NCBI GenBank assembly: GCA_020137815.1
Contig: CM035356.1
Coordinates: 7,254,001-7,318,000, forward strand
Reading direction: 5' to 3'
DNA: 64,000 bases
Origin: Hormiphora californensis
Taxonomy: Eukaryota > Animalia > Ctenophora
The notes under the pieces were generated by a model. The model worked only from the letters and a program-made list of their open reading frames with translations, searched no databases and was not told the origin of the DNA. A program made the translations under genes and the position numbers. Shown here one piece after another: positions 3 to 61,524 of the stretch (positions within the stretch are counted from its first letter, which is position 1; every line of letters starts with the position of its first letter).

Positions 3-764
3 ACGACAGAAGAAGGCAACGAAACAATTGAAACAGCGGAAGAAGTAGAAGGCGACGAAGTTAGTGAGGAAGGAGAGGAAGGCGATAATGCTAGTGATGA
101 AGAAGCTGAAGATGAACCTGATATCAGCGAGCTGCTAAAGGAAGAAGCAGAAAGGTACGGTGATATTTATGATGTGGATGGGCTCGATGAGGGGTATCAA
201 CTGATAAAATACAAGGTTCTCTGGGGCTTGAGACAGAGCCTAGTGCTATACAACGCCACCTATATCATTAAAACGGATGGAGATATTCTTGTCAATATGC
301 CTGTCCTGATCAGGAGATTAAAAGTGGCATCCCGGACCGGCCTCTACACAGGATCCTGTTATGCGCACCGTCTAGAACCGACTGTTAGGGAGTACATGGA
401 CATACATGGGAAGTTTCACAATTGGAAATACTGCTTGGGAGGAGGGTACATCTTATCCCGTGATGTGGTGGAGAGAATCATGGACCTGTCACGGGAGGTT
501 GCACGGATTCCTATCATTGCTGAGGATATGTACACGGGGTACCTTGTTACAAGATTACAAGATCCAGTGGTGGTTCCAGTTTCAAATAACGGGTGGATAA
601 AGTTGAATAGAAGGCAGGTTGACCCTAAAATTTTGAACACTATGGTGTTTTTTCACGATCTCAAGAAATTGGAACTTTTTGAACAGACTTTAGACAGCCT
701 CAATGATGCTCCATTTTTACCTGGGGCTGATCAGCACAGTATGGTTCCTGGACATGAATACTAA
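3..764 (+). CDS. GT31 family beta-1,3-galactosyltransferase-like protein, 3' part (5' end outside window)
   Basis: Frame is open from position 3. GT31 motifs present: LKEEAERYGDI, YIIKTDGDILVN (DxD), YCLGGGYILSRDVV and AEDMYTG. No intron in the visible part. Confidence 0.85.
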   Translation, partial: TTEEGNETIETAEEVEGDEVSEEGEEGDNASDEEAEDEPDISELLKEEAERYGDIYDVDGLDEGYQLIKYKVLWGLRQSLVLYNATYIIKTDGDILVNMPVLIRRLKVASRTGLYTGSCYAHRLEPTVREYMDIHGKFHNWKYCLGGGYILSRDVVERIMDLSREVARIPIIAEDMYTGYLVTRLQDPVVVPVSNNGWIKLNRRQVDPKILNTMVFFHDLKKLELFEQTLDSLNDAPFLPGADQHSMVPGHEY

Positions 765-1896: not shown

Positions 1897-3278
1897 CTAT
1901 TTCGCTCCTCCATCTGATTCTGCTGGCTGCTTACCTGAAAAAACAAATTATATCATTGATTCACTATTGAGGCTACATATATCAATTCATGGAGTATATT
2001 GTAATGGCAACCTCTGCAGCTGCGCTTGCCAGCTCAGTGATTGAGCTAGAACAATGATTTGACTCCTCGGTTAGCTCTGAAACTAAACCCTCTAATTTAG
2101 AGTCTAAAACTCACAATAGTCGATAAAGTCCAGAGCTGCACTGGAAACTATTTAATTACAGTCGGACCCCGCTTTACCGGGATGGTCGGGTGAGAGGGTT
2201 TTGTGCCCGGTATATTGGGGTCAAATACCGCTAATTTCCTCTATCCTCACGGTAAATCGTGGTAAACCGGGGTCCGACTGCACTAAATTAAACGGCCTCT
2301 GCTGAACTTACAATAGTCGACATCTTCTAGAGTCCAGGAGAGTACATTGGTACAACTTAGTTCCAGGGTGGTATTGGTTTGGGGCCATTCTGCAGGAAGG
2401 GCATCCGTGTTTACACCATGGTAACATGTCACCGTACAATTCACCTAGAGATGGGGAGTAAATAGTTATACATAGTACATCAAAATCTATACAATGTGTA
2501 CAAATAAAAATAAAATACGTAAGACGTAGTAGTATACACGAATTGAGCACAACGATAATACTGGTACTTATTGTCAGAAACTTTAAAAATGAAATTCAGA
2601 ACTTTATTTCTCAATCTCCGTCCCTGGTGCAATTGCCACCTATCTCGCACTGTATAATACATGTCTATGCTTCCTACAGCTACCTCTGCTTTGTTTAAAC
2701 TTGTTCTAACTTGGCAATCTTACCTCTGTTCTTGATATTGATCTCTCTGAAGTGCACTCTATCCTCCCATAGCCGTGTGATGGCACCACCTTATCAAATC
2801 TACACAGACCTTTGTAATGATCTGCCCGCTGGACTGGGGGAGAGAGGGGTACGTTAATCGGGGAGCAGGGAGAGCTAGAGGGGAGTGGGGCAGATGGGGA
2901 GAGAGGGGGACGTTAATCGGGGAGCAGGGAGAGCTAGAGGGGGCAGATGGGCAGAGGGGGACATTAATCGGGAAAATTGGGAGAGGGGATGTTAATTGTT
3001 AATTAGGGACTGGGGGAAATAATGGCTGATTGAATAGAATTAGCTATAAGCAAAAGTTTCGAATATAAACCTGTTTATTCCACATACAGACCCCCGATTT
3101 ACTGTGATGCTCGGGGTAAATCGCGATCGGGGTCTGACTGAATAATGATTCATGTTACCTACCGATACTCCAAGAGGGGTTTGTCATTGCGAAGAGGAGC
3201 ACCCCAATTAAAGAGATAACTGTTATCACGATCGAGAATAACTGGCATCTTTTTTCTGTGACCGCGTCTCTCGGTACC
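1897..3278 (-). CDS. Constant exons of a type II membrane protein with a C-terminal Sushi/CCP-like domain (exons 3278-3163, 2833-2724, 2444-2312, 1934-1897)
   Basis: GT-AG junctions have consistent phases (entry 2, then 1, 0, 1). Translation: xVPRDAVTEKRCQLFSIVITVISLIGVLLFAMTNPSWSIVQRADHYKGLCRFDKVVPSHGYGRIECTSERSISRTEVNCTVTCYHGVNTDALPAEWPQTNTTLELSCTNVLSWTLEDVDYCKQPAESDGGAK*. It has one TM helix, a selectin-type 6-Cys Sushi pattern with the conserved W, and NCT and NTT sequons. Confidence 0.8.
2159..2280. mobile_element. Short Tc1/mariner-like MITE (CAGTCGGACCCCG TIR family)
   Basis: TIRs CAGTCGGACCCCG...CGGGGTCCGACTG with TA on the left. Relatives occur near 3086-3140, 24001-24104, 34691 and 48446-54218. 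Confidence 0.7.
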
Positions 3279-4172
3279 CTGGAAATAGAAAGGGAGCTGG
3301 TTAGGGTTGGTACTCTGGAAATGGAAAGGGAGCTGGTTAGGGTTGGAACCCTGGAAATGGAAAGGAAGCTGGTTAGGGTGGTACTTGAATGGAAGGGAAC
3401 TGAGGGGTACTGGAATGGAAGGAATGAGGGTGGTACTTGATGGAGAGGGAGCTGGTAGGGTGGCTGATGGAGGGAACTGGTAGGTTTACTCTGGAAGGAA
3501 AGGGAACTGAGGGGGACCTGGATAATGGAAAGGGAGCTGGTTAGGGTGTATGGAGAATGGGAGAGGGGACGGTTAGTGGCGAAATGGGAAGGGATGTTAT
3601 AGGGGTACTGTGGAATAATGAACTGTTAGGATTGAATAGCTATAGGCAAAGTTGAAGTGTAACAGTTGTTTCTCACATAAAGGACCCCGATTACGTGTGG
3701 TCCGGGTAAATCGATCGAGGTGACTGATTGGTATACACCGATATGAAAGGAGGGTTGGTTGTACTTGCGAAAGGGAGCACCCCGTTAAAGTGGTAACTGT
3801 TACACGATCGGAAAGAGCTGGATCTGTTTCTGTGAGGACTGGTTCGTCTCGGTACCCTGGAAATAGAAAGGGAGCTGGTTAGGGTTGGTACTCTGGAAAT
3901 GGAAAGGGAGCTGGTTAGGGTTGGAACCCTGGAAATGGAAAGGAAGCTGGTTAGGGTTGGAACCCTGGAAATGGAAAGGGAACTGGTTAGGGTTGGTACC
4001 CTGGAAATGGAAAGGGAACTGGTTAGGGTTGGTACTCTGGAAATGGGAAGGGAACGGGTTAGGGTTGGTACTCTGGAAATGGAAAGGGATCTGGTTAGGG
4101 TTGGTACTCTGGAAATGGGAAGGGAACGGGTTAGGGTTGGTACTCGGGAAGGGAAAGGAAGCTGGTTAGGGT
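3273..4172. repeat. 36-bp minisatellite built from the branch point, pyrimidine tract and acceptor of the Sushi-gene TM exon
   Basis: Unit GGAAATGGAAAGGGAGCTGGTTAGGGTTGGTACTCT. On the minus strand it reads CCCTAAC...TCCCTTTCCATTTCCAG|GGTACC. The middle part (about 3380-3860) is noisy. Confidence 0.85.
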
Positions 4173-4492
4173 TGTCATATGGGTTTCCTGTGAGGGCTGA
4201 AGAAATTAAACATGTGACCGGGAGGGACCTGGTACACTGAGCGAGCCCTCTGATCTTGTGATTGGATTAGTTTTGTATTCAACAAGAGTAGTAATTGTTG
4301 ATTAGAGGGTTAAAGGATGGATCATGATTCATTATTAAAAACCGGTCGTTGAAAACCTTTGTCCAGCATTAAACCGCCTAATTGGGAAGATAGAACCGGA
4401 TAGAAATCTAATTGGTACATGACATTATTTCTGGGACAACGGGACAACCTATTATTCGATTACAGGGTACAGCTCCTGTTTTATTTGCTTAC

Positions 4493-4614
4493 TTATCCCT
4501 GCGAGTAAGGTTAGCAGCGTGAGCCCCTGCCGTATTAGGGAACAACTGAGCCTCTTTATCGACCACAGGGGCACTATTATTCACTACCACCCCGTTCTTC
4601 TTGTTCACTACCAT
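4493..4614 (-). CDS. Alternative first coding exon V5 of the Sushi gene (MVVNKKNGVVV...NLTRRD, 40 aa)
   Basis: ATG in an AAAATGG context, in-frame upstream TAG, open 122 nt, strong AA|GTAAG donor in phase 2. Confidence 0.65.
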
Positions 4615-4651
4615 TTTACAATCCGGGATATACTATCTCTGATCTCAGTCT

Positions 4652-4788
4652 CTGGTTACGAATTAACCTAAAGGTGGACTTGGTAACATAGACACCTGGC
4701 GCGACCCCCGCACACAGTCGCGCCAGGTGTCTATGTTACCAAAAGGTCGGCCTTCGCGCGCTGGCAAGGGAGGGTAATTTCGTAACCA
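4652..4788. mobile_element. Small hairpin MITE with TGGTTACGAA...TTCGTAACCA ends
   Basis: Terminal inverted repeat plus a 25-bp perfect internal stem. A relative at about 38797-39636 is interrupted by another MITE. Confidence 0.6.
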
Positions 4789-5279
4789 AACTATCTCTCT
4801 GATACAATTCGAGATAGGGAATGAAAACAAAACAACGGAGAAAAGAAGACATTTACTGGATCATCATAGATGCCCTGGTTATAGTTTGGAAAATGGATAA
4901 ATGATATGCGAGAGAGGGACAGAGACAGAGAGACAGAGAGAGAAAAGAGAGACTCTCTCTTCTCTTAGAGAGAGGACTAATTGGCATTCCGATTTTGAAC
5001 GACCTCTGAACGAAGAAAAAGGATCTGTAGTAATAACGAAAATACTTGCAGGTCCGCCAAAAGCTATGTAGACAATGTTGAAAATAGATTGAACTGCTTG
5101 CACTTGGCATTGAGCAGGGAACTATCATCATAATATCATATTCAGTAAACAATTTCTAAACTCTATAATCCATCTCTCTTCCCTCTATCTATCCCTCCCC
5201 CTCTCGTCCAATCGCATTATATTGTGTACCCCCGGCCCCCTCTATTACATGTCTCTCCCCTCAATCTCCCCCCGTGTAC

Positions 5280-5449
5280 CTTCGCCGAGCGAGTTGTTTG
5301 ACGTCACCCCTCTTGGTCGGATGGATCACGTGAGCACTCACTATCGCTCCGGCAAGATCCGGTCCCAAACTTGCCAATCCATGACCACCCAGTGCAGCGC
5401 CAGGTCGGTCCTGCCCCCGTAGGGGTGCTTTACCATCCACCCGCGTCAT
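5280..5449 (-). CDS. Alternative first coding exon V4 of the Sushi gene (MTRVDGK...KQLAR, 56 aa)
   Basis: ATG with in-frame upstream TGA, open 170 nt, AG|GTACAC donor in phase 2. Confidence 0.55.
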
Positions 5450-6427
5450 ATAGCAGTAGTATCAGAGATGGCCGGAGAGAGTGAGACGATATATGTTAGT
5501 CAATATAGGGCTGGTTATAAGAGAGGAGGAGCGAATGTATATCTCGAACTATACGGAGAATTACCCACACTGATGACTTGCGGGGTCAATGATTATGATA
5601 CAATCTAACTGGTAATCGATTCAATAATCGATAGGCAGAAACTAGTCGACTTTGGAGGAAAATACGGACCGCAAATTAACAAAACCTTATGGACTGTACA
5701 GATTAACAAAACCGCAGCTCCCTCTACAATCGTGATCCCAATTGTGCCACAAATACAGATCTCATTAATTTGGGATGATGCGGGGGTCGAGGTATAATAC
5801 ACATAGCTGCTGCAGCGACTATGTATATCGGATAACTGGTCTATATAGGACTTTAGGGCACGAGGTTCGCGATTTGTTTTACAGCAATTGGCCAATCGAA
5901 CTTTCTTCTTGAGTAATATGAACTTTCATAAATGAAAGAGCAGACCAATTATACGTCTCACGTTACTCAACGACCAATTTCAAGAGATCGACGGCTGAAG
6001 GTGAATAATACAATTAGTAATTCAAGAACTTTAATCACAAATAATGTGCTCCAAGACAAGTGTCCTAAAATTCGTATTAATCTGAAAAGCAGGTCATAAA
6101 AGCTTGTGCATACAGACAGACTATAATCGGCCATTGTCGGTCTTTATCATCACTGCGACACTGCATGTTGCATCGGATATATGCTAATCTGTATTTTGAT
6201 TTCGAAGCAGTTTTAAGACGATTTAGATGATTCTCTTGCAGCAAATAAACTGGCCTAAAATAAAATCCAGACCAAATAAACTCAGGGATGGGGTGCGATG
6301 GGGTGTTCAAAAACTACATCAAATTCACAGAGAGTGAGAGAGGGGAGACAGAGAGACCGAGAGACAGAGACAAAGGCACTGGACAGAGACAGAGACATCA
6401 GACAGACAGAGACAGAGAGGGACCTAC

Positions 6428-6651
6428 CTGGAAACGATAGTCTTGATTGGTGTTTTCTGTTTCAGAGGGTCCTGCGCCCTGTAGCGATCGTACTTTGTTT
6501 GGATAGAAATCTCTTGGAGCGTGGGTGCTCTGCCAGCCTGGTTCAGATCTCTCCTAGACTTCCGATCAGGAACTGGAGATTCAGGTTTAGACCCGAATGC
6601 TTTACTAATCCTTCGGCCACCTTTTTGTAGGTACCCCAGGGCAAGACTCAT
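6428..6651 (-). CDS. Alternative first coding exon V3 of the Sushi gene (MSLALGYLQ...KTIVS, 74 aa)
   Basis: ATG with in-frame upstream TAA and no intervening AG, open 224 nt, CAG|GTAGGT donor in phase 2. Confidence 0.65.
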
Positions 6652-6890
6652 GATACCAGCGGCGAGTGGTGTAAACAATTACCAACGACAAGAGAGAATA
6701 ATATGAACGGCGATGTTGTGCTGGTCTGTCTCCGGTAAAGCAAACAAAGTGAACGTGTCAGATGTAAACAAAGATGGCTGATCCATATGGTAATATGAAG
6801 TATTGAGTTGACCCGATCATTGAGTAGGTACATTACCAAATATGACGACAATTGACACCTATCACGAAACTCATGAATTGGGTAACGGTC

Positions 6891-8282
6891 ATAAATGAAG
6901 TATGAACGTTTGTAGACTGGCGCGTTATCAAGTTGGCTGTTCCCAGCGCGAGCTGGGGACAGCCAACTGGAGTTTAATCGCCCGGCAGGGCGATTAAACT
7001 GGTTTAAATCCCGACGCCGATCCCGAGGCGCCAGCCGAGGGTGAGGGGGAGGTGATTTAAACCTATAACGCGATAGGCTAACAAACGTTCATATTTTATG
7101 AAACCCGATAGTAATTACACACAAATAAGAGACACAACACAAGGTGAAACACACTAGGACTGCTGGCAATTAGTCAACAGACACCGTCAAAATGTGTGTA
7201 GACTTAGTGTCTACTGTTCCTAACATGTTTGAGAAAGAGAGAGAAAGATTAGGGGCAATACACACTGTCAGAGGTAGTGAACAGTAAAAGAGACAATGAG
7301 AGAGAGAAATGAATGGAATGTGATTCTTTTCACTCCTTATGAGAGAGATAACATTGAAACGTGTTGCAGACATGTTTCCCCTTTCTTTTGTTGACAGAAC
7401 TGTGTGTTTACACACATTTTCAATACTTAAAATTTTACACGCATGTTATTCAAATGAAGAGAAACGCGTGAAAAAGGACACTGGCCTGATAAATCACGAG
7501 CAGGGTGTTAAATCCCCCAGCTAGCAGTTATCATGAGCGCGCAAAATCTTCAAACGACTGATAAATCGGCTATCGGGTTTCATAAACTTATGAAACCCGA
7601 TAGCTGATTTATCAGTCGTTTGAAGATTTTGCGCGCTCATGATAACTGCTAGCTGGGGGATTTAACACCCTGCTCGCGATTTATCAGGCCAGTGTCCTTT
7701 TTCACGCGTTTCTCTTCACTTGAATAACATGCGTGTAAAATTCTAAGTATTGAAAATGTGTGTAAACACACAGTTCTGTCAACAAAAGAATGGGGAAACA
7801 TGTCTGCAACACGTTTCAATGTTATCTCTCTCATAAGGAGTGAAAAGAATCACATTCCATTCGTTTCTCTCTCTCATTGTCTCTTTTACTGTTCACTACC
7901 TCTGATAGTGTGTATTGCTCCTAATCTTTCTCTCTCTTTCTCAAACATGTTAGGAACAGTAGATACTAAGTCTACACACATTTTCAGGGTGTCTATTGAC
8001 TATTTGCCAGCAGTCCTAGTGTGTTTCACCTTGTGTTGTGTCTCTTATTTGTGTGTAATTACTATCGGGTTTCATAAAATATGAACGTTTGTTAGCCTAT
8101 CGCGTTATAGGTTTAAATCACCTCCCCCTCACCCTCGGCTGGCGCCTCGGGATCGGCGTCGGGATTTAAACCAGTTTAATCGCCCTGCCGGGCGATTAAA
8201 CTCCAGTTGGCTGTCCCCAGCTCGCGCTGGGAACAGCCAACTTCATAACGCGCCAGTCTACAAACGTTCATACTTCATTTAT
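6891..8282. mobile_element. 1.4-kb palindrome made of two inverted copies of a ~690-bp non-coding mobile element
   Basis: Arms 6891-7585 and 7588-8282 are near-perfect reverse complements. A single copy lies at about 40512-41201. Confidence 0.85.
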
Positions 8283-8403
8283 CATTACTCGGTATCCCTA
8301 TGGCCTTTACCGTGGTCGGTGGAAATTGTAAGTACCTGCTGTCAGAGCATTGGCCTGGTAGTGTAAGTGTACCTGTGAAGTTTTGCTAGTTTTTGTCACC
8401 TAC

Positions 8404-8612
8404 CTAAGGGCAGTTTCTTTGATAGGCCCCATTAATAGTGGATCCCGTTTTCTGTACAGTTCAAATTTAGGGTTTATCCCCTCCACTCTGTGCTCTAAAT
8501 CTTCCTCGTGGTGACCGGCCCGGTCCCGTCCTGGAACCATGGATTGTGGTGCCCGTTCATAGTGGCGTTCGGGAACTGCTCTTTGGAAAGCTCTAAGAGC
8601 AGGACTTGCCAT
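8404..8612 (-). CDS. Alternative first coding exon V2 of the Sushi gene (MASPALRAF...KETAL, 69 aa)
   Basis: ACCATGG Kozak context, in-frame TGA 3 codons upstream, open 209 nt, AG|GTAGGT donor in phase 2. Confidence 0.65.
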
Positions 8613-9054
8613 GGTCGATCAGTTTCGTCGGTGTCAAGCAACACGTTAAGCAAACAGGGTAATAGAGAGTGACGATGTTGTCATATGCTGCTATAATATA
8701 CACTTACAGCTGTATTCTAGTGGTCACGGAGCACTATTGTCGCACTGCGGGTGCATCTCTAGACATATGCACAAAGAATAACAAACCCTGACCGCGGTAC
8801 GAAACCGTGAACGGAGCTTGCCCTGTTGTTTTGAAACCTGATAGGTAGATAAACCTGATAAACCGGCTTATCAAGTCCCTTCTATTGCGTACTGAAGTTT
8901 GTGACAGATGGTGGTGACTGGTGCGTACCAACGCCCAGGAGTTCCAACAAGAAAGAGAGAGAAAGGGGCATAAGAGGGAGAGAGACAGTCAAACAGAAAT
9001 AATAAAGATGACAAACAAGCATACATACATACATACAGTGAGTCTAAACGTTAC

Positions 9055-9299
9055 CTTCCACTCTCGTAGAGTGCTTTATCAAGTTCATCCTCCAAGTTCA
9101 ACCTCTTGAAGTACTTCCCCTCGAAGAAGTCCTCCATATCTCCCATGATCCCCGAGGAGGTATGAGAAGATCCTGAACTCTTCTTTTCCACCATCTCCAC
9201 CTGCCCCTCATCAATAGACCCCTCATCATGCTGGTCGGTTGGTGTTGTTATGGCTGGCATGGGATCATCTTGATCCTCGAGGAGAATTTTCGTTGCCAT
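9055..9299 (-). CDS. Alternative first coding exon V1 of the Sushi gene (MATKILLED...LYESG, 81 aa, acidic)
   Basis: Open 245 nt with an AAG|GTAACG donor in phase 2. A duplicated CTTTTTAG acceptor lies just upstream of the ATG. Confidence 0.65.
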
Positions 9300-9707
9300 G
9301 GGAATATTATGTTGTTGTGGTACTAAAAAGAGGGGAATATGTTGTTGTGGTACTAAAAAGATGGGATGGCAAAGTGCCAGAATTAACAAGGGTGTGATCG
9401 TGGTGCAGAGAGACGAAATCAAGCGATCACGATCATATGGACTCGCTCATTCAATGGCCTGTATGGGCTCTACAATTACGATAACAACAGGTTCAATATC
9501 AAATAGAGGCCCTTTAATTGCCTCCCGATCTAACAGCATGGTGTTCTAGCAAAATAGCGATGGTTCGCGGACGATCCAAAAAGAGCCTTTCTAAAACTAA
9601 TAAAATGTACTCTCTGAGCAATCTGAGAAAATTTTATCTGTCAACAGGATCACAAATCTTTTTCAATAGAATTCGAAAATTAAAGTAAGAAAATATGCCA
9701 AGTATCA

Positions 9708-10650
9708 TAGTAGGGTCGGTTGTGGGAAGTTGGATCTGGAATTATAAATTTGACTTGCTGATATGTTTAGTGACTCTATAAAAAGTCCAAAGCACCATCC
9801 CACAGGTCTCTACCACCCCCGGTTCACTAATTATTCGTAATTATGTGATTTATGACGTTATGGCCAATTAGCACTAATAATACTAGTTCCTGGCCACTTA
9901 GAGCTTAGATTTTGATACCAGATGATAGAGGATGACTAGATTAGTGGGCATACAAAATTTCAGGTCGATCGGAGTTATGGTCGAGGAGTTATAGCCGTTT
10001 TTCCGTTTGGCTGGCGGTTGGCTGGCACCACCTGGGATTACGGGTTTAGGTCGTCGTAGGAGGTCGTGGTTGGTCGTATTCGATCGGGGTCGATGAGGTG
10101 ATCAAAACCTAGTGGGGCCAGACCTTGGCCCCACCCCGTTCTGGGGTTATTAGGATTTTTCGGTTTCCCGCCAAAATATTTTCCCGCCAAAACCGAAAAA
10201 GCTTAATAACCCTAGAACGGGGTGGGGCCAAGGTCTGGCCCCACTAGGTTTTGATCACCTCATCGAGCCCGATCGAATGCGACCAACCACGACCTCCTAC
10301 GACGACCTAAACCCGTAATCCCACGTGGTGCCAGCCAACCACCAGCCAAACGGAAAAACGGCTATAACTCCTCGACCATAACTCCGATCGACCTGAAATT
10401 TTGTATGCCCACTAATATAGTCATCCTCTATCATCTGGTATATCAAAATCTAAGCTCTAAGTGGCCAGGAACTGGTATTATTAGTGCTAATTGGCCATAA
10501 CGTCATAAATCACATAATTACGAATAATTAGTGAACCGGGGGTGGTAGAGACCTGTGGGATGGTGCTTTGGACTTTTTATAGAGTCACTAGACATATCAG
10601 CAAGTCAAATTTAAATTTCCAGATCCGACTTCCCACAACCGACCCAACTA
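9708..10650. mobile_element. Fully palindromic non-autonomous DNA transposon (Academ-like, TAGT...ACTA)
   Basis: Inverted arms of about 465 bp flanked by TCA/TCA. An alternative reading is GT...AC termini with a TA TSD. Confidence 0.75.
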
Positions 10651-10801
10651 TCAGTAGAAGAAAAGAGTGGATCTCAGTGAGAGAACTGAAAAGGTGAAGG
10701 AGATCGGGCAGTGTCTCGATGGTGCATCAGGCACGAACCAGGAAAGGGAAATTAAAGTTGACCCTGCAAGCTCTCACCCCTCCAATGATACAGATGTGTG
10801 G

Positions 10802-11590: not shown

Positions 11591-13759
11591 CACGGTGCCC
11601 CTGAAGGACGTTCCACCTCGACCGAGCCCCCCAAAAAAACGAACGGTTGTGTGACCTAAAGGGGACCTCTGGGAACTACGCAGGACCGTGGGGGAAAATA
11701 TATCATAGTAGCCTAAGGAGAAAATCGCATTTTCCCTCACACTGGCCAAATTCTACATTCCACACTTTCAAATCTTATTTTTTCGGCCAAAATCAAGTCA
11801 CCCTAGGGTTTTTTGACACGCCGAATCGATTGCCGCTAGAATTGGAACTCTAAATCCACGGCAACATTGTTAAAATGGCGTTTTTTGGGGGTTTTTTTGC
11901 GCTTTTTTGCCCTGAACTGCATTTATATGACGAGTGAGACTTCTGACTATATTTTTAAAGTGTTCCTCGGTCGATTTTCTTCCCGATTCCAAATTTTTGT
12001 GAAAATCGGTTACCAAGTAGATAAACTGTTAAAAATACAGCACTAATGAAAAATGACTGTTTCAGATGAGAACAATGTGACGCTCATACCTTTCCAAGTA
12101 GATCTCTTCCCAGGCAAGAAACAGTGCTACTGGTCGATCAAAACATGACTTCTACATTCCCTAGAGGATAGGAGGGAGTGGAACATGGTGAGTACAAAAT
12201 TAAAATTGATTGCCAAGTTACATTAATTGTTAGACAGGATTAAATGTACGCAACCGGGTATAAAAAATTAAAAGTGTAAATGGTATAGTCATAAATAGTT
12301 TGTAATGCTGTGAGTCTATACATGAGAAGCGTTATAAGCTAGCCCCGCTCTTCCCAGCTGCAGTTTGTAGTGGGGCGAGGTCATGTTGTTCACTTTGTAG
12401 TTGGACCACAGTGCATTCCAACTAGAATGTGCGTTCTCCAGCTCCTGCTCGGAGAACATCCCTAGAGGCCTACCCAAGTTATAATCTATGAACTCCTCCA
12501 AATGTTCCTCAATGATGTGGAACTTGGTGGTGGTGGATGTTCCATAGTAGGCCCTAAGTGTGGAGAGGCAATCCCTGAACTCCTGTATTGCCGACCTGTA
12601 TCCTGATTGGAGAGAGGGTGGTAGATGCTACATTCGGACCATGATTTAGTGGCACCCCAATTTAGTGGCATCCCGATTTAGTGGTCAAAACCCTTTCCCG
12701 CAAGGATGTCCGAATGTAGCATCTACCACCCTCTCTCCAATCAGGATACAGGTCGGCAATACAGGAGTTCAGGGATTGCCTCTCCACACTTAGGGCCTAC
12801 TATGGAACATCCACCACCACCAAGTTCCACATCATTGAGGAACATTTGGAGGAGTTCATAGATTATAACTTGGGTAGGCCTCTAGGGATGTTCTCCGAGC
12901 AGGAGCTGGAGAACGCACATTCTAGTTGGAATGCACTGTGGTCCAACTACAAAGTGAACAACATGACCTCGCCCCACTACAAACTGCAGCTGGGAAGAGC
13001 GGGGGCTAGCTTATAACGCTTCTCATGTATAGACTCACAGCATTACAAACTATTTATGACTATACCATTTACACTTTTAATTTTTTATACCCGGTTGCGT
13101 ACATTTAATCCTGTCTAACAATTAATGTAACTTGGCAATCAATTTTAATTTTGTACTCACCATGTTCCACTCCCTCCTATCCTCTAGGGAATGTAGAAGT
13201 CATACGTTTTGATCGACCAGTAGCACTGTTTCTTGCCTGGGAAGAGATCTACTTGGAAAGGTATGAGCGTCACATTGTTCTCATCTGAAACAGTCATTTT
13301 TCATTAGTGCTGTATTTTTAACAGTTTATCTACTTGGTAACCGATTTTCACAAAAATTTGGAATCGGGAAGAAAATCGACCGAGGAACACTTTAAAAATA
13401 TAGTCAGAAGTCTCACTCGTCATATAAATGCAGTTCAGGGCAAAAAAGCGCAAAAAAACCCCAAAAAACGCCATTTAAACAATGTTGCCGTGGATTTAGA
13501 GTTCCAATTCCAGCGGCAATCGATTCGGCGTGTCAAAAAAACCCTAGGGTGACTTGATTTTGGCCGAAAAAATAAGATTTGAAAGTGTGGAATGTAGAAT
13601 TTGGCCAGTGTGAGGGAAAATGCGATTTTCTCCTTAGGCTACTATGATATATTTTCCCCCACGGTCCTGCGTAGTTCCCAGAGGTCCCCTTTAGGTCACA
13701 CAACCGTTCGTTTTTTTGGGGGGCTCGGTCGAGGTGGAACGTTCTTCAGGGGCACCGTG
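11591..13759. mobile_element. 2.17-kb foldback Chapaev-like (CMC) element carrying the transposase C-terminus in both arms
   Basis: CACGGTG...CACCGTG termini with a 4-bp CAGA TSD. Arms are 11591-12639 and 12708-13759. They encode TKFHIIEEHLEEF...LGMFSEQELENAH...YNASHV*; the right arm has a 1-bp frameshift. Confidence 0.8.
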
Positions 13760-14464: not shown

Positions 14465-15338
14465 CCGTGTGCGGCAAAAAAAAAGCCCCCCTAGACCACC
14501 ATAGTTGCCGATGTGGTGGAGAGCTGTAACTTGGCAGGGTTGCTCCACTATGTCTATCTTGATCCTGACAGAAAAATCAGAGCTCTAGCTCAAAATTCAT
14601 TTTTTTGATAGGAATGAACATTGTCATTCATTCCAAGAAAAAAATATTTTCGGTCCAGAATTCAAGCAATTATCTTTGGCCATCGATTAGCTTTCCAATG
14701 TGACCAAGATCATCTAAATTGGGCAACCACAAGAGACACAGTGTCATCTTTCTTAAATTTAATCAGGTCATGTGATCTTCACCGAATCGTTGAGTGTTCA
14801 GTATTACGAATCGGTCTAAGTGGTAGAGAATCACGTATCACGGCTACTAATGAGGGATGACGATGCTGATTGGTCATGAGATCTGTAGCTCTTTGATAAA
14901 TGTCCTCTTTCCTCGAATCACATTACCCTGTATTGGTACACATACCTCATTAGCGGCCGTGATACGAGATTCCTCTGCCCATTGGCTCGATTAGCAATCC
15001 CGGATAATCAACGATTCGGTGAAGATCACATGACCTGACTAACTTTAAGAAACATGACACTGTGTCTCTTGTGGTTGCCCAATTTAGATGATCTTGGTCA
15101 CATTGGAAAGCTAATCGATGGCCAAAGATAATTGCTTGAATTCTGGACCGAAAATATTTTTTTCTTGGAATGAATGACAATGTTCATTCCTATCAAAAAA
15201 ATGAATTTTGAGCTAGAGCTCTGATTTTTCTGTCAGGATCAAGATAGACATAGTGGAGCAACCCTGCCAAGTTACAGCTCTCCACCACATCGGCAACTAT
15301 GGTGGTCTAGGGGGGGGGCTTTTTTTTGCCGCACACGG
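14465..15338. mobile_element. Tc1/mariner-like MITE with long TIRs
   Basis: TA|CCGTGTGCGGCAAAA...TTTTGCCGCACACGG|TA, with inverted arms longer than 320 bp. Confidence 0.85.
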
Positions 15339-16189: not shown

Positions 16190-17493
16190 TTATCTCTGGT
16201 CAATCTTCTTACTCAACAAGATTTCTTTCGTAAGCATCCAATAATTTATTCTTTGCACTCCTTCGGATAACCTAGATATCTAAACGGTCCCTCGCAAATC
16301 CGCGCATGCGCACTAACTTACTTCCTGACTAACCACCTTTTCCTGACCTTCCTCGGTGTGCCCGATATACGCCCGGGCTGAGAAAATGCCGGGGAAATAA
16401 AACGGTAGTCAATGGTGGGAGAAATTAAAAAGATTGCTACTTACTTGCCTCCCTCAGTGCTACGAAATAACGTGCTGGCCACTGTTGCTACTATGACTGA
16501 CGCCACCATGGTTCTTATACCCCGCTAAAATAGGGGATGGAGATATTGGATCACTACACAGCTGCACTGGGTTTCTCAACAAAACAACTACTGTTGTATT
16601 TCTAGGACAGACAATGATTGGGCACAACACTATATATCGTAATGTCTTCAATTTGACGGCAGCTACTCATTACACATGTTTGTGAGGAACAAGTCTTCCT
16701 GCTTCCCTTACTCAATAACTTCCTGCAGCAGTGTCGATCCAAGCAAAGAAAGCAAGCTCGAATACACATTTTGTGGAATGTGTCACTAGTCATATCAACT
16801 ATAAGTTATATAGTCTATAACGTATCACTACAACTCAGCAGAGAGTTCCTTCTAACGGGCCTGATTTTAGTAGACATGAAGCTCATCCCTAAAGCAGTAA
16901 AGCAGTAAATTGGAATACACACATGGAGGGCACAACACATAATCCCCTAGGTTATACGTAGTGCTGCTGAAACTAACTGGTTTAAACAAGAACTTTCTAC
17001 CTTCTCTCTTCCCATGTTCCAGGTGTTTATAGGATGGCCAGGGGATGCCCCAATTAAAATAACAAATTACCACACTCTCGTGTTTCCTAGTGTACTTAGT
17101 AACCCCAACTATCCCCCACCAGCTTAGTAACCCTTACAATAATGTATGAGAAAATACTAAATTAGGACCAACCATATAATTGGCTGTTTTGTTACTGGGA
17201 ATAGTACAGCTGTTCAGGAGTGGGTCAAAAGCTACATCATGATATTGGATATAGAAACGGGATCACACCTCTGAGTTGAATATTTTTCAACACTCCCAGT
17301 TTAATTACATAATTAATTGGTTAATTACCTGTACTAATTAGTTAACTACCTGTACTGGTATTGATGGGGGTGTTGGTCTTTCCACGCCATCCTCCAAGAC
17401 ACACACACAGAGTGGAAGCTGTCGTGATCACAGTTCACACCAAGTACTCGCACAAACAAGGGCGAGAGAGACTATACTAATGGACAATCATAT

Positions 17494-17589
<96 letters not shown>

Positions 17590-20500
17590 GTGCTTCCCCA
17601 AAATGGGTGTCTTCTGCTTGTCATATCAATATCATTAGACGACGACACGTGCCGCACTCATATTGGGTCGTACTTGGAGCGGACCATTTCAGTTTTTGCG
17701 GCGCCTCCTTGGCCAGGCAACTCCATTAGACCAGGAACAGATAATGCACTTGGTCATGATATGTTAGTTGAGATCGGGGGAGACGAGAAAGAGTTTAGAA
17801 AACAATTAAATATGCAAGATAACAGCCACCACGGTTTCTAATTGGCTTTACGAATGGCGAATATCCTAATTCCTTTATCGTTTATCGGAGACATCTAGGC
17901 TCGAAGTGCCTAATTATGTAAACGGCACTCTCCTAATGACAGGTAAGGGAAAAGTACCAGATTAATATTTCGGTTGGATAAAAAATACCATTTATCTTTG
18001 GTCGGGCGGGTCATCCTCCAGACGCACCATCTAGTCCTACAGACAATTTAACCAAGAAACAACGACAACGAACAAACAAACTGACATATATAACATGAAA
18101 GTGATAGGAACAAACTGACCTATCATGAAAGTTCTGGAAATAAAGCCTCTCATCCATCTTTATCTCTGCTATCAGCCTCTTCATTTTAGCAGGTGTCATC
18201 CCCTCCGACATTAGTTGATATTGCAGGACTGATATCTGACGTTTTGGCCAGGATATTGAGCGGGGTCCGGCGTGAAGTCTGTTAACGAACTTCTCCACTT
18301 GTAGAATCGTCTGAAATAGGTTGTAGGAGTTATAGAGGGACATGGGGGTTGGCTTTTGGGTAGAGGGGAGTTATAGAGGAATTGGTGAAATCTGGGGGGG
18401 GGGGGTTATAGCGATGAGTGGATACTAAGGTGGGGGAATAAATCAATTGAAAGCCATGGGTTCTGGGGTAGCTGAAAATTGTAGAGATGTTGCGGGGGTT
18501 AGAAAAATGCAGTGGAAAGACCCGGATATCTCCTTACTTAGGGTAGCGACTGGCTATTTGAAATGGCGGCTAATTTGATACACCCCCTCTATAACAGGCC
18601 AGCAGGTGTACCAGATTTGGACTTTTAGACATCAGTGGGCTTGGCATGAGTTCTAGCTAGCCCACTGATGTCTAATAGTCCAAATCTGGTGCACCTGCTG
18701 GCCTGTAGAGGGGGTGTTTCAAATTAGCCGCCATTTCAAATAGCCAGTCGCTACCCTAGAGAATGGGATAAAATTGATAGGGGTACGAAATTCAACTTGA
18801 TGCTTAACTTTTTTAAACCCAATTAGACTTACGGAATTTGCCAAAATTTAAGAAACAAAAAACACCACTCAAAGAGATTTCAAATTCAAAGATCTGGCGA
18901 CCCAAAGAATATATATTATAGTCTGAGTTTAGCTTGCTGACTGCTGTTCATCAGCAAAAAAAAATACGATCATAATTTTTTGATAAGAGAGCTTAATCGT
19001 CGACAACAAACAAATTAGCTCGCGAAATTGCCCAGTAATTGACGATATAGCGGGGGGTGCGACATGTTAATTTTGTTAACTTTGTTAATATTAACATCGA
19101 GAAAACAGGTGATTTATTAACAAAATTAACAAAAAGTTAACAAACGTTAACAAATGCCATTTATGCCATCTAAATCACCTTTAGCACGTGTTTTTGGTAT
19201 TTAACACTTGTTCTGCGAGCAAAGTTGTTCCTTTTGCACGATTTGCACACTCCTACTAACCTCTACTACGGCTTTTCTACAGCGATTTGTTCCATTGTGT
19301 AAATTTTAATAAAAACTAGCCAAACTAAACCGCAATTGAAGTCAATTGACCCTAATCCACCTTTTTTAAACCCTAAAAACTAATTGAGACTCATGAATTT
19401 ACCATAAAACAACAAGAATTATTGCATTATGTATTCATAATGCTGTGTTTCCCTGCCCTACCGTTTCACATGTCAGTGACATTGTCACTGCCAACAGGAT
19501 CAAGGCTTGGTCATAATGTAATGTGAGATGCATACGATCTAGCTGTCAGTATACTTCTCACATAGCTTAGAGTTAGCTAACTCCCAATCACATGACACTT
19601 GCTAACCAGCTTTTGACATTCCAACTTAACTACTTATCTAACATCTCACACTCGACTCGCAAGATGAAAATGTGTATGTAACACGCGAAACGCGCGGCAG
19701 AGCATTTCATGTTTTGTTGAGTGGCGCGCGCACACACGTCCATCAAATTGTGTCAATGAGGTGTTTGATGAAGGAGTAGCTCGTCACTGTGCGCGCGGCT
19801 CTAGTTGCTACACCGTTGCCCTCGCAACGAAAGTGTGACCAAAAAATGTCCCTCTACCGATTAGTTAGTATACCAAAATGTCGTTTTCGAATTCTAACCC
19901 TGCTATGCCTTTTTACAAAGTAAAAAGGCATCCGGGTGAATGCCTTCGGCATTCACCCGGGCAGGGAAAAAATACCCCAAAAATCAATTTTTCTAAAAAA
20001 ACACAAGGATTTGTAGCGAAGCAAATTTTCAATTTTTGACCAAAAAATTGATTTTGGAAATATTTTGTTTCTTTTTCCGACAGAAACGTTGTACATCATC
20101 TTCTTTCGTTCAAAGAATCGATTATCGATGAAAAAATCACGTTAAAGTGAGATTTTATACGCTAAATTGAAATATTTGTAACTTTTGGATTTTATCGATT
20201 TTGAGCCAAAATTAAAACATGTATGTCGGACTTTGGTTATCGGAAGAGGCCTTGTTTGGGTTTATGTGTTAGAAAAGTCATTAAACTATAAAATTAAACC
20301 AGTTAAAGTCGTATTATCAACCAATAAGAACAGTTTTTGCTGATTTGTTAACTTTGTTAATTTTGTTAATTAACGTTAATTAACAAAATCGAAAAAAAGA
20401 GGTGATTTATTAACAATTAACATGTCGCCCCCCCCCCCGATATAGCTCAAAAACTGTCTGAGCATTGTCCTGACCCTATTCTCAGGAACAGCGGTCAGGG

Positions 20501-20809
20501 CAGTGGGCTGACCCTATTCTCAGGAACAGCGGTCAGAGCATTGGCCTGAGAGTACAAACACACGTGTACCTGAAGTGGTCGTTCTTGTGTCTGGACGGGA
20601 TCACTTTTTAGAAGGACCCTGAAGGTACTGTTCTGAAGATGATCGTCCGTGTTGATGAAGGATGGAACTTCACCGTTGGAAGGAAGGTCTGCTATAGATG
20701 ACACTTTTCTAATGGGCTCCTCCTCCTCCTCCTCCCCAGGTAAGGGACCAAGTGGGGGTGAATCGGTGCTGCAGTGGGCAATCATTGGATCGATATCATC
20801 AAGAGACAT
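16190..20809 (-). CDS. Uncharacterised multi-exon protein-coding gene (exons 20809-20570, 18310-18120, 17418-17350, unresolved middle exons, about 16524-16445 and about 16271-16190)
   Basis: The first three exons join with canonical GT-AG and correct phase (MSLDDIDP...ERPLQ|TILQVEK...FHD|SFHSVCVSWRMAW). The middle and last exons are tentative. No domain recognised. Confidence 0.55.
18541..18756. mobile_element. Palindromic MITE
   Basis: GGGTAGCGACTGG...CCAGTCGCTACCC, arms of about 100 bp, TA on both flanks. Confidence 0.8.
19052..20438. mobile_element. Poly-G-ended non-autonomous DNA transposon with 8-bp TSD
   Basis: GATATAGC|GGGGGGTGCGACATGTTAATT...AATTAACATGTCGCCCCCCCCCCC|GATATAGC, with subterminal TTAACAAA repeats. 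Confidence 0.85.
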
Positions 20810-24288: not shown

Positions 24289-26727
24289 CTATTCAGCATC
24301 CTCCATTACAGTCTCCTCATCCCCTCCCCCAGAAACTGCAGAGGCACCATTATCATCATCAACCTCTTCCTTTTTAACACTCTCCCCCTTGACCTCATCA
24401 CCTCCAACCTCATCAACAACCTCATCTCCACCTCCCTCCTTCTTTTCTTCTTCGTCTTTCTTGTCGTCATCCCGTTTATCGTCAGGTGTCCTACTTCTGC
24501 TCCGTCGATCTCGGCTCCTCCTGTCACGAGATCTTGATCTACTGTCTCGTTTACCAGAGTTGCTCCTTGAACGTCGAGATCGCCTGAAAAGACGGGGTTA
24601 GTATTTCTGGGACACCCTGTAAGTACATTGTGTGTAAAATGGACACTTCCATCATGTACTGTGCACGCGCGGCCCAAAGCCATGTCACAGGGCGCGCCAT
24701 CATCTCCACAAATTGAGCTGGAGGGGTGCTAGTTGTACGGGGGATTGTTGCAAAATTGTCCCACTTTAGTACCTGGGTGATGGAGAGCGAGATTTTGGTT
24801 TGTCCTCGAATACCCTAACTCTGCGACCGTTTAACTTGGTATCATCCAGTTCTCGGACTGCTCGTTTCATCTCTTCACGAGTTCGGAAATCAGCAACTCT
24901 GAGGGATGGGATTTTAGTTAAATTATTAACCTCTTAGTAATTGGTTAATTAATTAGTTAGTTTTTAATTAGTTGCTAATTAGTTGCCATTTTGGAATGTG
25001 ATTCACTCACCCCTCTCCAGGTCTAAAACGATGAGCGTCTGCAAAGGTAACATCAGCAACCCGCCTAAAGAAATCCTTGAGATCCTGGAAAATATGGGAG
25101 CAGTGTGTTAGATTGAGTGAATGGAATAACTGGGAATAAAACCACGCATATTTCAACACACAAATTACCTTGAAAAGGGGGCGTGGGAACTAGATTGGAC
25201 TATTAATGGGACACCATGGGCCACCAACCAGAGAGAAGGGGACTTGGTTTGGGGCACCAGAGAGAACATATGATACAACGATCAGGCCAATCTCTCTCTG
25301 GGATCTCTGTTTGGACCATTGCCAGATTACCAGAAGTAACCAGAATTATAACCAAAGTGTGTGCCAATAACCAGAGGCCCAGAGAGCCACTCACGGCTAC
25401 GAATAGTGGATGTGGAGAGTTATAATAGATGGAGAAAGATAGAATCATAATGGAGATAGATAGATAGTAAGATTGAGAAAAGAAGAGGACCGGTCACATC
25501 ACGATTGCTCAGACGGGAATCAATTAGTGCACTGGGGCCATGTTATGCAGTTAATTGTCAGTTTTATTCCCTGTCAAGTTATTTCTGGCCGTGCTTGTGC
25601 CTTGTGGGTTAAGACATGCATAATAATACGAGATATGGATTTTGTGAGAGCTGACTGCTGTTGAGTGCTAATATACCAATCACACTTTACAGTTATAATG
25701 GTGAAATCAAACAACTATCGCATTGTTGCATAACACACTGACTAACTTACCCTCCAGTCGCAGGAAGAAGAGATCCCCTCCACGACACATCGGTACTTGG
25801 TGTTGAAGGGCCTATCAAACTGCCTGTGGGAGAGTGGGAGTGTTATGAGAGGGCAACCATGGTGACCGAAGAGAAAAGATTGGTGATAAATTCTATATCA
25901 AGTTCTGGAGAGTGTAAGATGGACAGAGAGTTACAATTATATTTTACACATGCCAATTAGTCAAGCTGGTACCCAATTGGGTACCCCGCTGTCCCCGCAC
26001 TTGTGCCGAGTGCCGACACAAATACCCCGCATCTCTTGTTATTTGAGACCTCGGGTGTAACATTTGTACAGCCTTAAACCTTATTAGTGACTTAAATCCC
26101 TAGATAGATGGAGGTGTACAAATAATGAGGCTTATTACACACTAAACTACCGGTTATAACATAACAAAGGATTTATTATTTAGTACTGCAATAACTTACG
26201 ATCTCATTCGAGGACCACCTCCTCCTCCTCCTCCACCCCCACGCCGATCATCCCTCCTCTCCGGTCTACCACCTTTGCAATGCTCAACCAGGACCCGCTC
26301 ACCCAGCAGCTCCCTACCATCAAGATCATACACTGCATCGTCGGCATCTCTGTGGTCATCAAAGTCCTGCAGGGGGGATGGGACGTGTCAAGGGGAGGAT
26401 TTAACATGGAACAGATATCAAAATAATAAGATCGGTCTCGAATAGAAGGGCGTGAAACAGTGGGCACTATCTACCATATTCTAATAATGGGCGGAGTGGG
26501 CTTGTGAGAATGATAAGAGAAGAAACACCTACCACAAAAGCGTATCCACTCTTGATATTGATATCGTTGACCCTGCCGTAATCCTTGAAAAACCTCTCCA
26601 GATCCTTTGTCCTTACATCGTAGTGTAGTTTACCAACATAGATCCTATTACGAAGGTCCCTGTCCCTGTCTCTATCCCTATCCCTCTCTCCACCCCGTTC
26701 ACTCCGGTCTCGATGATGGTCTGACAT
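24289..26727 (-). CDS. SR splicing factor, SRSF4/5/6 (B52/SRp55)-like (exons 26727-26533, 26366-26200, 25823-25751, 25085-25011, about 24897-24773, about 24583-24289)
   Basis: RRM1 (RIYVGKL...GYAFV|DFDDHRDADDAVYDLDGRELLGERV), Gly linker, pseudo-RRM (CDWR|DLKDFFR...TFADAH), RS domain and an acidic tail. Confidence 0.92.

Positions 26728-32220: not shown

Positions 32221-42914
<10,694 letters not shown>

Positions 42915-45033: not shown

Positions 45034-61524
<16,491 letters not shown>

What the first reader, a model, noticed from the sequence alone, without database searches (positions are those of the whole stretch)
1897..9299. Variable-tail receptor cassette: five unrelated first coding exons feeding one constant TM + Sushi module
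Seen in sequence: five minus-strand ATG-initiated open segments (9299-9055, 8612-8404, 6651-6428, 5449-5280, 4614-4493; 81, 69, 74, 56 and 40 aa) each end at a GT donor in phase 2, the phase required by the acceptor at 3278. Four have an in-frame stop just upstream of the ATG, so they cannot be chained as internal exons. The constant exons give about 132 aa: a short basic juxtamembrane stretch, one TM helix and one 6-Cys Sushi/CCP-like domain with N-glycosylation sequons, implying type II topology. Inference: one identical ectodomain is displayed on five non-homologous cytoplasmic N-tails (acidic, basic, Gly-rich), chosen by alternative promoters or SL trans-splice acceptors. The layout parallels clustered protocadherin/UGT1/plectin loci. 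Unlike protocadherins, the diversity is intracellular and the variable exons are not paralogous. It could give cell-type-specific signalling or sorting of an adhesion or recognition molecule in a ctenophore. I know of no description of this gene.
Basis: partly seen in the sequence, partly recalled or inferred. Interest (0 to 1): 0.88.

Follow-up and report, generated by a model that had tools for sequence, protein, structure and literature searches.

The report
Comb-jelly membrane protein, swappable cytoplasmic tails
A comb-jelly gene has five, likely six or more, separate start exons in a row that likely each splice onto one shared small membrane protein, so it would make versions with different inside-the-cell tails, a layout already known from the vertebrate DPP6/DPP10 genes.

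Summary
The five ATG-to-phase-2-donor segments are real at the stated coordinates and exceed chance (0 of 300 shuffles reach five; thresholds set afterwards). Only phase 2 opens the 132-codon constant frame. The window is a pleurobrachiid ctenophore: it holds an exact Hormiphora-type spliced leader, and a Pleurobrachia bachei gene model is homologous. That model keeps V1 (68/83), V3 (67/75), C1 (38/38) and a further upstream exon (63/63) in frame, and predicts the V3-C1 joint. Other haplotypes show an in-frame indel in V4 and a synonymous change in V5, against frame-breaking indels in the flanks; V4 also has two amino-acid changes. Corrections: the cassette likely extends to 20.8 kb (a sixth, two-exon tail, plus two short candidates); V2 and V3 resemble each other; the Sushi label rests on the Cys/Trp pattern alone. 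No spliced joint was seen in RNA. Best reading: alternative first coding exons put different cytoplasmic tails on one type II membrane protein. That is the DPP6/DPP10 and plectin layout rather than the protocadherin one. The protein has no detected relative beyond P. bachei.

The parts
9055..9299 (-). V1, candidate first coding exon, 81 aa, acidic; acceptor-like AG 23 nt before the ATG (9322)
   Evidence: 68 of 83 columns identical in the P. bachei model, frame kept across 3 gaps
8404..8612 (-). V2, candidate first coding exon, 69 aa; resembles V3
   Evidence: not in the P. bachei model
6428..6651 (-). V3, candidate first coding exon, 74 aa, basic
   Evidence: 67 of 75 columns identical in the P. 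bachei model, which joins it to C1
5280..5449 (-). V4, candidate first coding exon, 56 aa, Gly/Ala-rich
   Evidence: one in-frame 3-nt insertion in X1 and X5, two amino-acid changes in X5
4493..4614 (-). V5, candidate first coding exon, 40 aa; weakest donor of the five
   Evidence: one synonymous change in X1 and X5
20570..20809 (-). Upstream candidate first exon, 80 aa, phase-0 donor; acceptor-like AG 19 nt before the ATG
   Evidence: in the P. bachei model 51 of 84 columns identical, its middle read there in the other two frames
18120..18310 (-). Upstream exon, 63 aa, phase-0 acceptor and phase-2 donor; with 20809-20570 gives a sixth, 143-aa tail
   Evidence: 63 of 63 identical in the P. bachei model, which joins it to the exon above
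17350..17390 (-). Short candidate first exon, 13 aa, phase-2 donor (uncertain)
   Evidence: donor score 8.2, codon score not above background; not in the P. bachei model
16445..16509 (-). Short candidate first exon, 21 aa, hydrophobic, phase-2 donor, acceptor-like AG 15 nt before the ATG (uncertain)
   Evidence: donor 8.5, acceptor 9.5, codon score not above background; not in the P. bachei model
3163..3278 (-). C1, first constant exon: juxtamembrane stretch with one Cys, then the single predicted TM helix
   Evidence: 38 of 38 identical in the P. bachei model
2724..2833 (-). C2, constant exon, first two ectodomain Cys
   Evidence: 32 of the 33 residues that the P. bachei model holds are identical
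2312..2444 (-). C3, constant exon, three Cys, the Trp before the last Cys, two sequons
   Evidence: not in the P. bachei model, which ends earlier
1897..1934 (-). C4, last constant exon, completes the sixth Cys, stop codon
3280..4170 (-). 36-nt minisatellite whose unit ends in the C1 acceptor, interrupted by a degenerate frameshifted copy of C1 and its downstream intron (acceptor 3856)

Best explanation
One ctenophore gene carries five, likely six or more, separate ATG-bearing exons that likely each splice to exon C1, so it would make a predicted single-pass type II membrane protein with one constant, predicted Sushi-like outer domain and interchangeable cytoplasmic tails. Shown: the exon anatomy, the phase match, conservation of V1, V3, the 18310 exon, C1 and C2 in P. 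bachei, and frame-keeping variation in V4 and V5. Inferred: each start exon has its own promoter (some 5' ends then receive the spliced leader), so a cell's promoter choice sets the tail; the nearest downstream donor is spliced to C1 and the other start exons fall in the intron. Inferred function: the small constant part binds one partner at the cell surface, most likely as an accessory subunit or adhesion molecule, and the tails (acidic V1, basic V3, short V5) change its sorting or its effect on the partner, as the N-terminal variants of DPP6/DPP10 do for Kv4 channels.
For: Five of five in the only phase that opens the constant frame; 0 of 300 shuffles reach five. Codon usage of V1-V5 lies in the top 1.1-2.7% of stop-free background stretches, donors in the top 0.7-6.3% of background GTs. 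No internal phase-2 acceptor in V1-V5 scores above 0, against 6.5-15.3 for 26 native acceptors, so they are not cassette exons. P. bachei model P0007: V1 68/83, V3 67/75, 18310 exon 63/63, C1 38/38; frame kept across 5 gaps in V1 and V3, while the stretch upstream of V3 matches in two different frames; the model predicts the V3-C1 and 20570-18310 joints. Haplotypes: 3 of 40 listed substitutions fall in V4/V5, which are 20% of the span (binomial p 0.029); the 1 listed indel inside them is 3 nt, and 0 of 11 outside are multiples of three. No signal-peptide-like segment in V1-V3 or V5; both constant sequons follow the TM.
Against: No spliced joint and no 5' end was observed. P0007 is a fused prediction (SR gene plus this locus), not a transcript; it chains V1 to V3 and lacks V2, V4, V5, C3 and C4. 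Four of five V donors (4.8-5.9) score below the weakest of 26 native donors (6.4; these built the matrix). The codon test is weak: C1 and C3 do not pass it. V4 carries two amino-acid changes in X5; 20 of 60 substitution rows and 15 of 27 indel rows were not shown, rows cluster, and V5's ATG is not verified in one X1 haplotype (letters between 4590 and 4790 unknown). The middle of the 20809 exon is read in other frames in P0007. Charge bias across the TM is small (+2 to +4 before, +1 after). No promoter motif is shared convincingly. The function rests on analogy alone.
Confidence: 0.62

Rival explanations
1. Same isoforms, but one upstream promoter makes a long precursor and alternative spliced-leader trans-splicing chooses which V exon becomes first.
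For: The organism has the spliced leader (exact 29-nt match at 49333-49361; on 56% of Iso-Seq reads in H. californensis, PMC8527503 section 37). V1, the 20809 exon and the 16509 candidate have acceptor-like AGs 15-23 nt before the ATG (7.4-9.7), like the neighbouring SR gene (23 nt, 13.3).
Against: V2, V3 and V4 have no AG scoring above 3.3 within 130 nt. V5's best AGs (4760, 4667) lie in the 4591-4789 stretch that one X1 haplotype skips. A test in trypanosomes found no general proteome diversification by alternative trans-splicing (PMC6821157 abstract). Leader addition is also compatible with separate promoters.
Confidence: 0.14
2. Only some start exons are functional (V1, V3 and the upstream pair); V2, V4 and V5 are decaying duplicates or chance frames.
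For: V2, V4 and V5 are absent from the P. bachei model; weak donors for V4 and V5; two amino-acid changes in V4; about 0.6 phase-2 frames of 40+ codons per 5.2 kb are expected without the codon filter.
Against: All three pass the codon test; V2 resembles V3 as protein but not as DNA (score 22, null mean 22), which suggests selection on the peptide; V4 and V5 vary less than their flanks and keep frame in the rows shown. A gene model can pass over exons that it treats as intron.
Confidence: 0.16
3. The V segments are internal exons chained into one long cytoplasmic tail, as the P. bachei model draws V1 to V3.
For: P0007 chains them; V1 has an acceptor (9322, phase 1) that continues its frame.
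Against: In-frame stops 3-10 codons upstream of V2-V5 and no phase-2 acceptor above 0; the stretch that P0007 uses to reach V3 holds a stop and changes frame in this window.
Confidence: 0.04
4. The V exons belong to other transcripts and do not splice to C1.
For: No joint was observed.
Against: No other coding acceptor was found between 4493 and 3278 apart from the minisatellite units and the frameshifted C1 copy; C1 has no in-frame ATG before the TM, so it needs an upstream phase-2 exon.
Confidence: 0.04

Closest known systems
Vertebrate DPP6 and DPP10 (Kv4 auxiliary subunits; PMC3973911, passages read)
   Same: Single-pass type II membrane proteins; alternative first exons encode variable cytoplasmic N-termini (five DPP6, four DPP10 variants) joined to constant exons for the TM and ectodomain.
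   Different: No sequence relation found; ectodomain here about 100 aa after the TM rather than a peptidase-like domain on 25 core exons; tails about as long as the ectodomain; one tail likely uses two exons; host has spliced-leader trans-splicing; no partner known.
Plectin (PMC3695321, passages read)
   Same: Several first coding exons (nine) spliced to one common exon 2, with isoform-specific tissue expression.
   Different: Plectin is a large cytoskeletal linker, not a membrane protein.
Clustered protocadherins and UGT1 (PMC1885805 and PMC3325998, search listing only; detail recalled)
   Same: Tandem variable first exons feeding constant exons.
   Different: There the variable exons are large paralogues encoding the outer or lumenal part (recalled); here they are short, mostly dissimilar (only V2/V3 alike) and predicted cytoplasmic.
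Sushi/CCP module (definition from PMC9352485, passage read)
   Same: Cys-bounded module of 72 aa with a Trp between the last two Cys; the Pro-x-His-Gly and Cys-x3-Cys-x2-Gly motifs recall six-Cys selectin-type modules (recalled, from no call).
   Different: No Pfam, PDB or fold match was obtained; a long insertion lies between the fourth and fifth Cys.

Membership tests
Variable-first-coding-exon genes, DPP6/DPP10 layout | Several upstream exons, each with its own ATG and no upstream coding connection | tested here: met
   V1 alone has an acceptor that could extend its frame
Variable-first-coding-exon genes, DPP6/DPP10 layout | All end in the phase required by one common exon | tested here: met
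   5 of 5 phase 2; only phase 2 opens the constant frame
Variable-first-coding-exon genes, DPP6/DPP10 layout | Constant exons encode the TM and outer domain, type II topology | tested here: inconclusive
   one TM, sequons and six Cys after it, no signal peptide; charge bias small; no topology predictor or experiment
Variable-first-coding-exon genes, DPP6/DPP10 layout | Each isoform exists as mRNA, from its own promoter, with distinct expression | not testable with these tools
   no RNA holder listed
DPP6/DPP10 protein family | S9B peptidase-like ectodomain | tested here: not met
   whole constant part is 132 aa; no Pfam match for C1-C3
Clustered protocadherin / UGT1 loci | Variable exons are tandem paralogues encoding the outer or lumenal part | tested here: not met
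   1 of 10 pairs among V1-V5 similar at p 0.001; they precede the TM
Sushi/CCP domain | About 60 aa with four invariant Cys | tested here: inconclusive
   six Cys over 72 aa; disulfide pairing not tested
Sushi/CCP domain | Conserved Trp before the last Cys | tested here: met
   Trp113 between Cys107 and Cys121; position within the module recalled
Sushi/CCP domain | Profile or fold match | tested here: inconclusive
   only single exons or part of the domain were searched; the 53-aa model had pLDDT 59

The most novel reading that the evidence does not exclude
A ctenophore gene uses alternative spliced-leader addition on one long precursor to choose among up to nine cytoplasmic tails for a small Sushi-like surface subunit: an N-terminal toolkit like that of DPP6/DPP10, evolved independently in comb jellies and switched by trans-splicing instead of promoters.
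Probability: 0.1. Interest if true: 0.8.

Novelty: new member of a known kind. Interest (0 to 1): 0.44.

Why it matters
It would show that many cytoplasmic tails on one type II membrane protein, known from vertebrate neuronal channel subunits, also arose in comb jellies on a protein with no detected relative outside them. It gives a compact, testable locus for asking whether promoters or spliced-leader choice sets isoforms in ctenophores, and a candidate cell-type marker. It also shows that the public P. bachei model fuses this gene to its neighbour. The principle itself is known.

Tried and rejected
RNA: no RNA holder listed; X13 (RNA is a guess) laid 0 contigs at 88 and 80% likeness; X12 (another organism) laid one 31-letter piece; X7-X9 held mainly repeats, X7 also two exact pieces over 3105-3379. 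None of this bears on expression. No whole genome was held. Homologue searches: C3 against longer proteins, 0 of 1 candidate; C3 against 1.84 billion representatives, 2 hits, both unrelated repeat proteins, rejected; P0007 residues 1247-1318 against shorter proteins, 0 of 19; C3 read-through in metagenome contigs, 0 of 241; V3 gave 1 of 10; V1, V2, V4 and V5 were not searched on their own. Pfam: 0 families for 11 exon peptides; one weak herpesvirus hit (E 0.18) rejected. PDB sequence hits E 0.58-3.5 rejected. The fold of a 53-aa part (three strands, pLDDT 59) gave no Foldseek match at E 0.001 and best Z 4.4, with no CCP module listed; uninformative. The ESM Atlas gave no answer. The whole spliced protein was not folded or searched. 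Shared upstream motif: best p 0.015 (V2/V4) and 0.035 (V2/V3) among 36 pairs, no better than V4 against the SR gene (0.007); rejected. Degenerate C1 copy: no contig of X1 or X5 covers 3444-3787; a hole proves nothing by itself. Earlier scan notes: none for relatives or this genome. Literature: listings showed no title or abstract on this gene; the Sushi passages of two ctenophore papers concern other proteins; no supplements or annotation files were read, and the Iso-Seq-based H. californensis annotation may already hold these isoforms.
Full report
Observation. The five minus-strand segments are as described: ATG-initiated, 81, 69, 74, 56 and 40 codons, each ending at a GT in phase 2. The constant exons are C1 3278-3163, C2 2833-2724, C3 2444-2312 and C4 1934-1897. 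Entered in phase 2 they give 132 codons; in phases 0 and 1 they stop at codons 49 and 17. Each V exon joined to C1-C4 gives a single open frame of 172-213 aa with one TM segment. V2-V5 have in-frame stops 3-10 codons upstream, V1 50 codons upstream.

Chance. I built donor and acceptor matrices from 26 exons of this window (kinase, SR and transporter genes, plus C1-C3) and a codon model from 1,479 codons. V1-V5 score in the top 1.1-2.7% of stop-free background stretches of their length and their donors in the top 0.7-6.3% of background GTs, though four of five donors score below the weakest native one, and C1 and C3 fail the codon test. In 4200-9400, 5 frames pass all filters, all phase 2, against 7 in 93,176 background bases (1 in phase 2); 0 of 300 shuffles reach 5. 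The thresholds were set after seeing the five, so this overstates the case somewhat, but without the codon filter the shuffle mean is still 0.58 and the maximum 3.

Host. The window holds an exact 29-nt match to the spliced leader printed for Hormiphora californensis (PMC8527503, section 37 and passages read), and the one homologue found is a Pleurobrachia bachei model. A pleurobrachiid ctenophore is therefore inferred.

Conservation between species. V3 found 1 protein among 10 candidates: P0007, 1,344 aa, a prediction that fuses the upstream SR splicing-factor gene to this locus. It holds V1 (68 of 83 columns identical), V3 (67 of 75), C1 (38 of 38) and C2 (32 of 33), and keeps frame across 5 gaps in V1 and V3, whereas the non-coding stretch before V3 matches in two different frames. 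It joins V3 to C1. Together they give a sixth tail of 143 aa. Against: these joints are predictions; the model chains V1 to V3; it lacks V2, V4, V5, C3 and C4; and it reads the middle of the 20809 exon in the two other frames (net shift zero; draft errors or real, not resolved). Two short phase-2 candidates (17390-17350, 16509-16445) have strong donors but no other support.

Variation within the species. I laid DNA contigs of X1 and X5 on 3100-5650 only, to test the two weakest exons. Of 40 substitution rows shown (60 in all), 3 lie in V4/V5, which make up 20% of 4190-5650 (p 0.029; rows cluster, so optimistic): one synonymous in V5, two amino-acid changes in V4. Of 12 indel rows shown (27 in all), the one inside a V exon is 3 nt and in frame; 0 of 11 outside are multiples of three; one of these abuts V4's ATG and leaves an ATG in place (my reading). 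One X1 contig differs at 26 letters and 6 gap letters over 4316-4504, with all listed differences in the intron. One X1 haplotype skips 4591-4789 with unknown letters between, so V5's start is not verified there. V1-V3 were not tested this way.

Are the tails unrelated? Of 36 pairs among nine peptides, V2/V3 stands out (score 45, null 23.3, p about 0.001), also against the P. bachei V3 (p 0.0007), with no DNA similarity above null. An old duplication or a shared short motif near the C-terminal end is likely. The next best pair has p 0.014 and does not survive the number of tests.

Protein. The constant part has a juxtamembrane Cys, a TM at residues 14-32, six Cys spaced 16, 13, 4, 24 and 14 apart, a Trp between the last two, and two sequons after the TM. 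Type II topology is inferred from the lack of a signal peptide and the position of Cys and sequons; the charge bias is small. The pattern fits the Sushi definition in outline (PMC9352485, passage; six-Cys variant recalled), but searches with single exons or part of the domain found no profile or fold match. The whole spliced domain remains untested.

Mechanism. No V exon has an internal phase-2 acceptor scoring above 0, so chaining is unlikely and mutually exclusive first exons are the simplest reading. Acceptor-like AGs lie 15-23 nt before the ATG of V1 and of the 20809 and 16509 exons, as in the SR gene, which fits leader addition; V2-V4 have none within 130 nt. I therefore favour a promoter per exon, with leader addition on some, over leader choice on one precursor; an abstract-level reading of PMC6821157 also finds no general role for the latter in trypanosomes. 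All of this is inferred: no joint or 5' end was observed. The function, an accessory or adhesion protein whose tail sets sorting or signalling, is by analogy.

Comparison. DPP6 and DPP10 are type II membrane proteins with alternative first exons encoding variable cytoplasmic N-termini on constant TM and ectodomain exons (PMC3973911, passages); plectin has nine first coding exons on one exon 2 (PMC3695321, passages). The locus works like these and is a member of neither protein family; it fails the protocadherin/UGT1 test of paralogous outer-domain exons. Earlier notes of this scan list variable-first-exon loci in other invertebrate genomes (unchecked), so the layout is not rare. Four paper searches listed nothing on this gene, but annotation files and supplements were not read.

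Verdict. A real and larger cassette than reported, on a protein with no detected relative beyond P. bachei; a known kind of gene; splicing not yet seen. Interest 0.44.

Noticed in passing
window 3280-4170 (-): The C1 acceptor is the last unit of a 36-nt minisatellite; units at 3314 and 3350 are in-frame acceptors scoring 12.9 and 14.7 (C1: 14.4) that would add 12 or 24 Ser/Thr-rich residues before the TM.
   Followed up: partly
window 3400-3910 (-): Degenerate copy of C1 and the intron behind it, with an identical acceptor at 3856, frameshifted; 333 of 451 columns identical with 43 gap runs and 44 mismatches, a pattern that suggests an unpolished long-read duplication rather than a pseudo-exon.
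   Followed up: partly
window 17674-17726 (-): A short ATG frame ending at a weak phase-2 donor (score 1.4); the stretch is matched in the P. bachei model across a frame change, so it may be another start exon.
   Followed up: partly
window 2283-2312 (-): Reading through the C3 donor keeps the sixth Cys and stops 9 codons later, so intron retention would give a complete domain with another short C-terminus.
   Followed up: no
window 49333-49361 (+): Exact copy of the ctenophore spliced-leader sequence, just before a LINE-like retroelement at about 49400-53700.
   Followed up: no
window 6891-8282, 9707-10651, 11591-13759, 14476-15325: Large inverted-repeat (foldback-like) elements between the start exons, arms 94-100% complementary; a smaller one at about 4655-4789 falls in the stretch skipped by one X1 haplotype.
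   Followed up: no
window 24290-26727 (-): SR splicing-factor gene with two RRMs directly upstream on the same strand; fused to this locus in the P. bachei model.
   Followed up: partly
window 35394-42875 (+): Two-domain MSK/RSK-type kinase gene (name recalled from the translation); the exon at 38051 has no open frame from its acceptor, likely a one-base assembly error.
   Followed up: no
window 3-740 (+): Galactosyltransferase frame (PF01762, E 1.7e-17) convergent with the constant exons.
   Followed up: no
window 45034-61490 (+): Multi-exon membrane transporter gene of MFS type (label recalled from the translation), with retroelement and tandem repeats in a long early intron.
   Followed up: no
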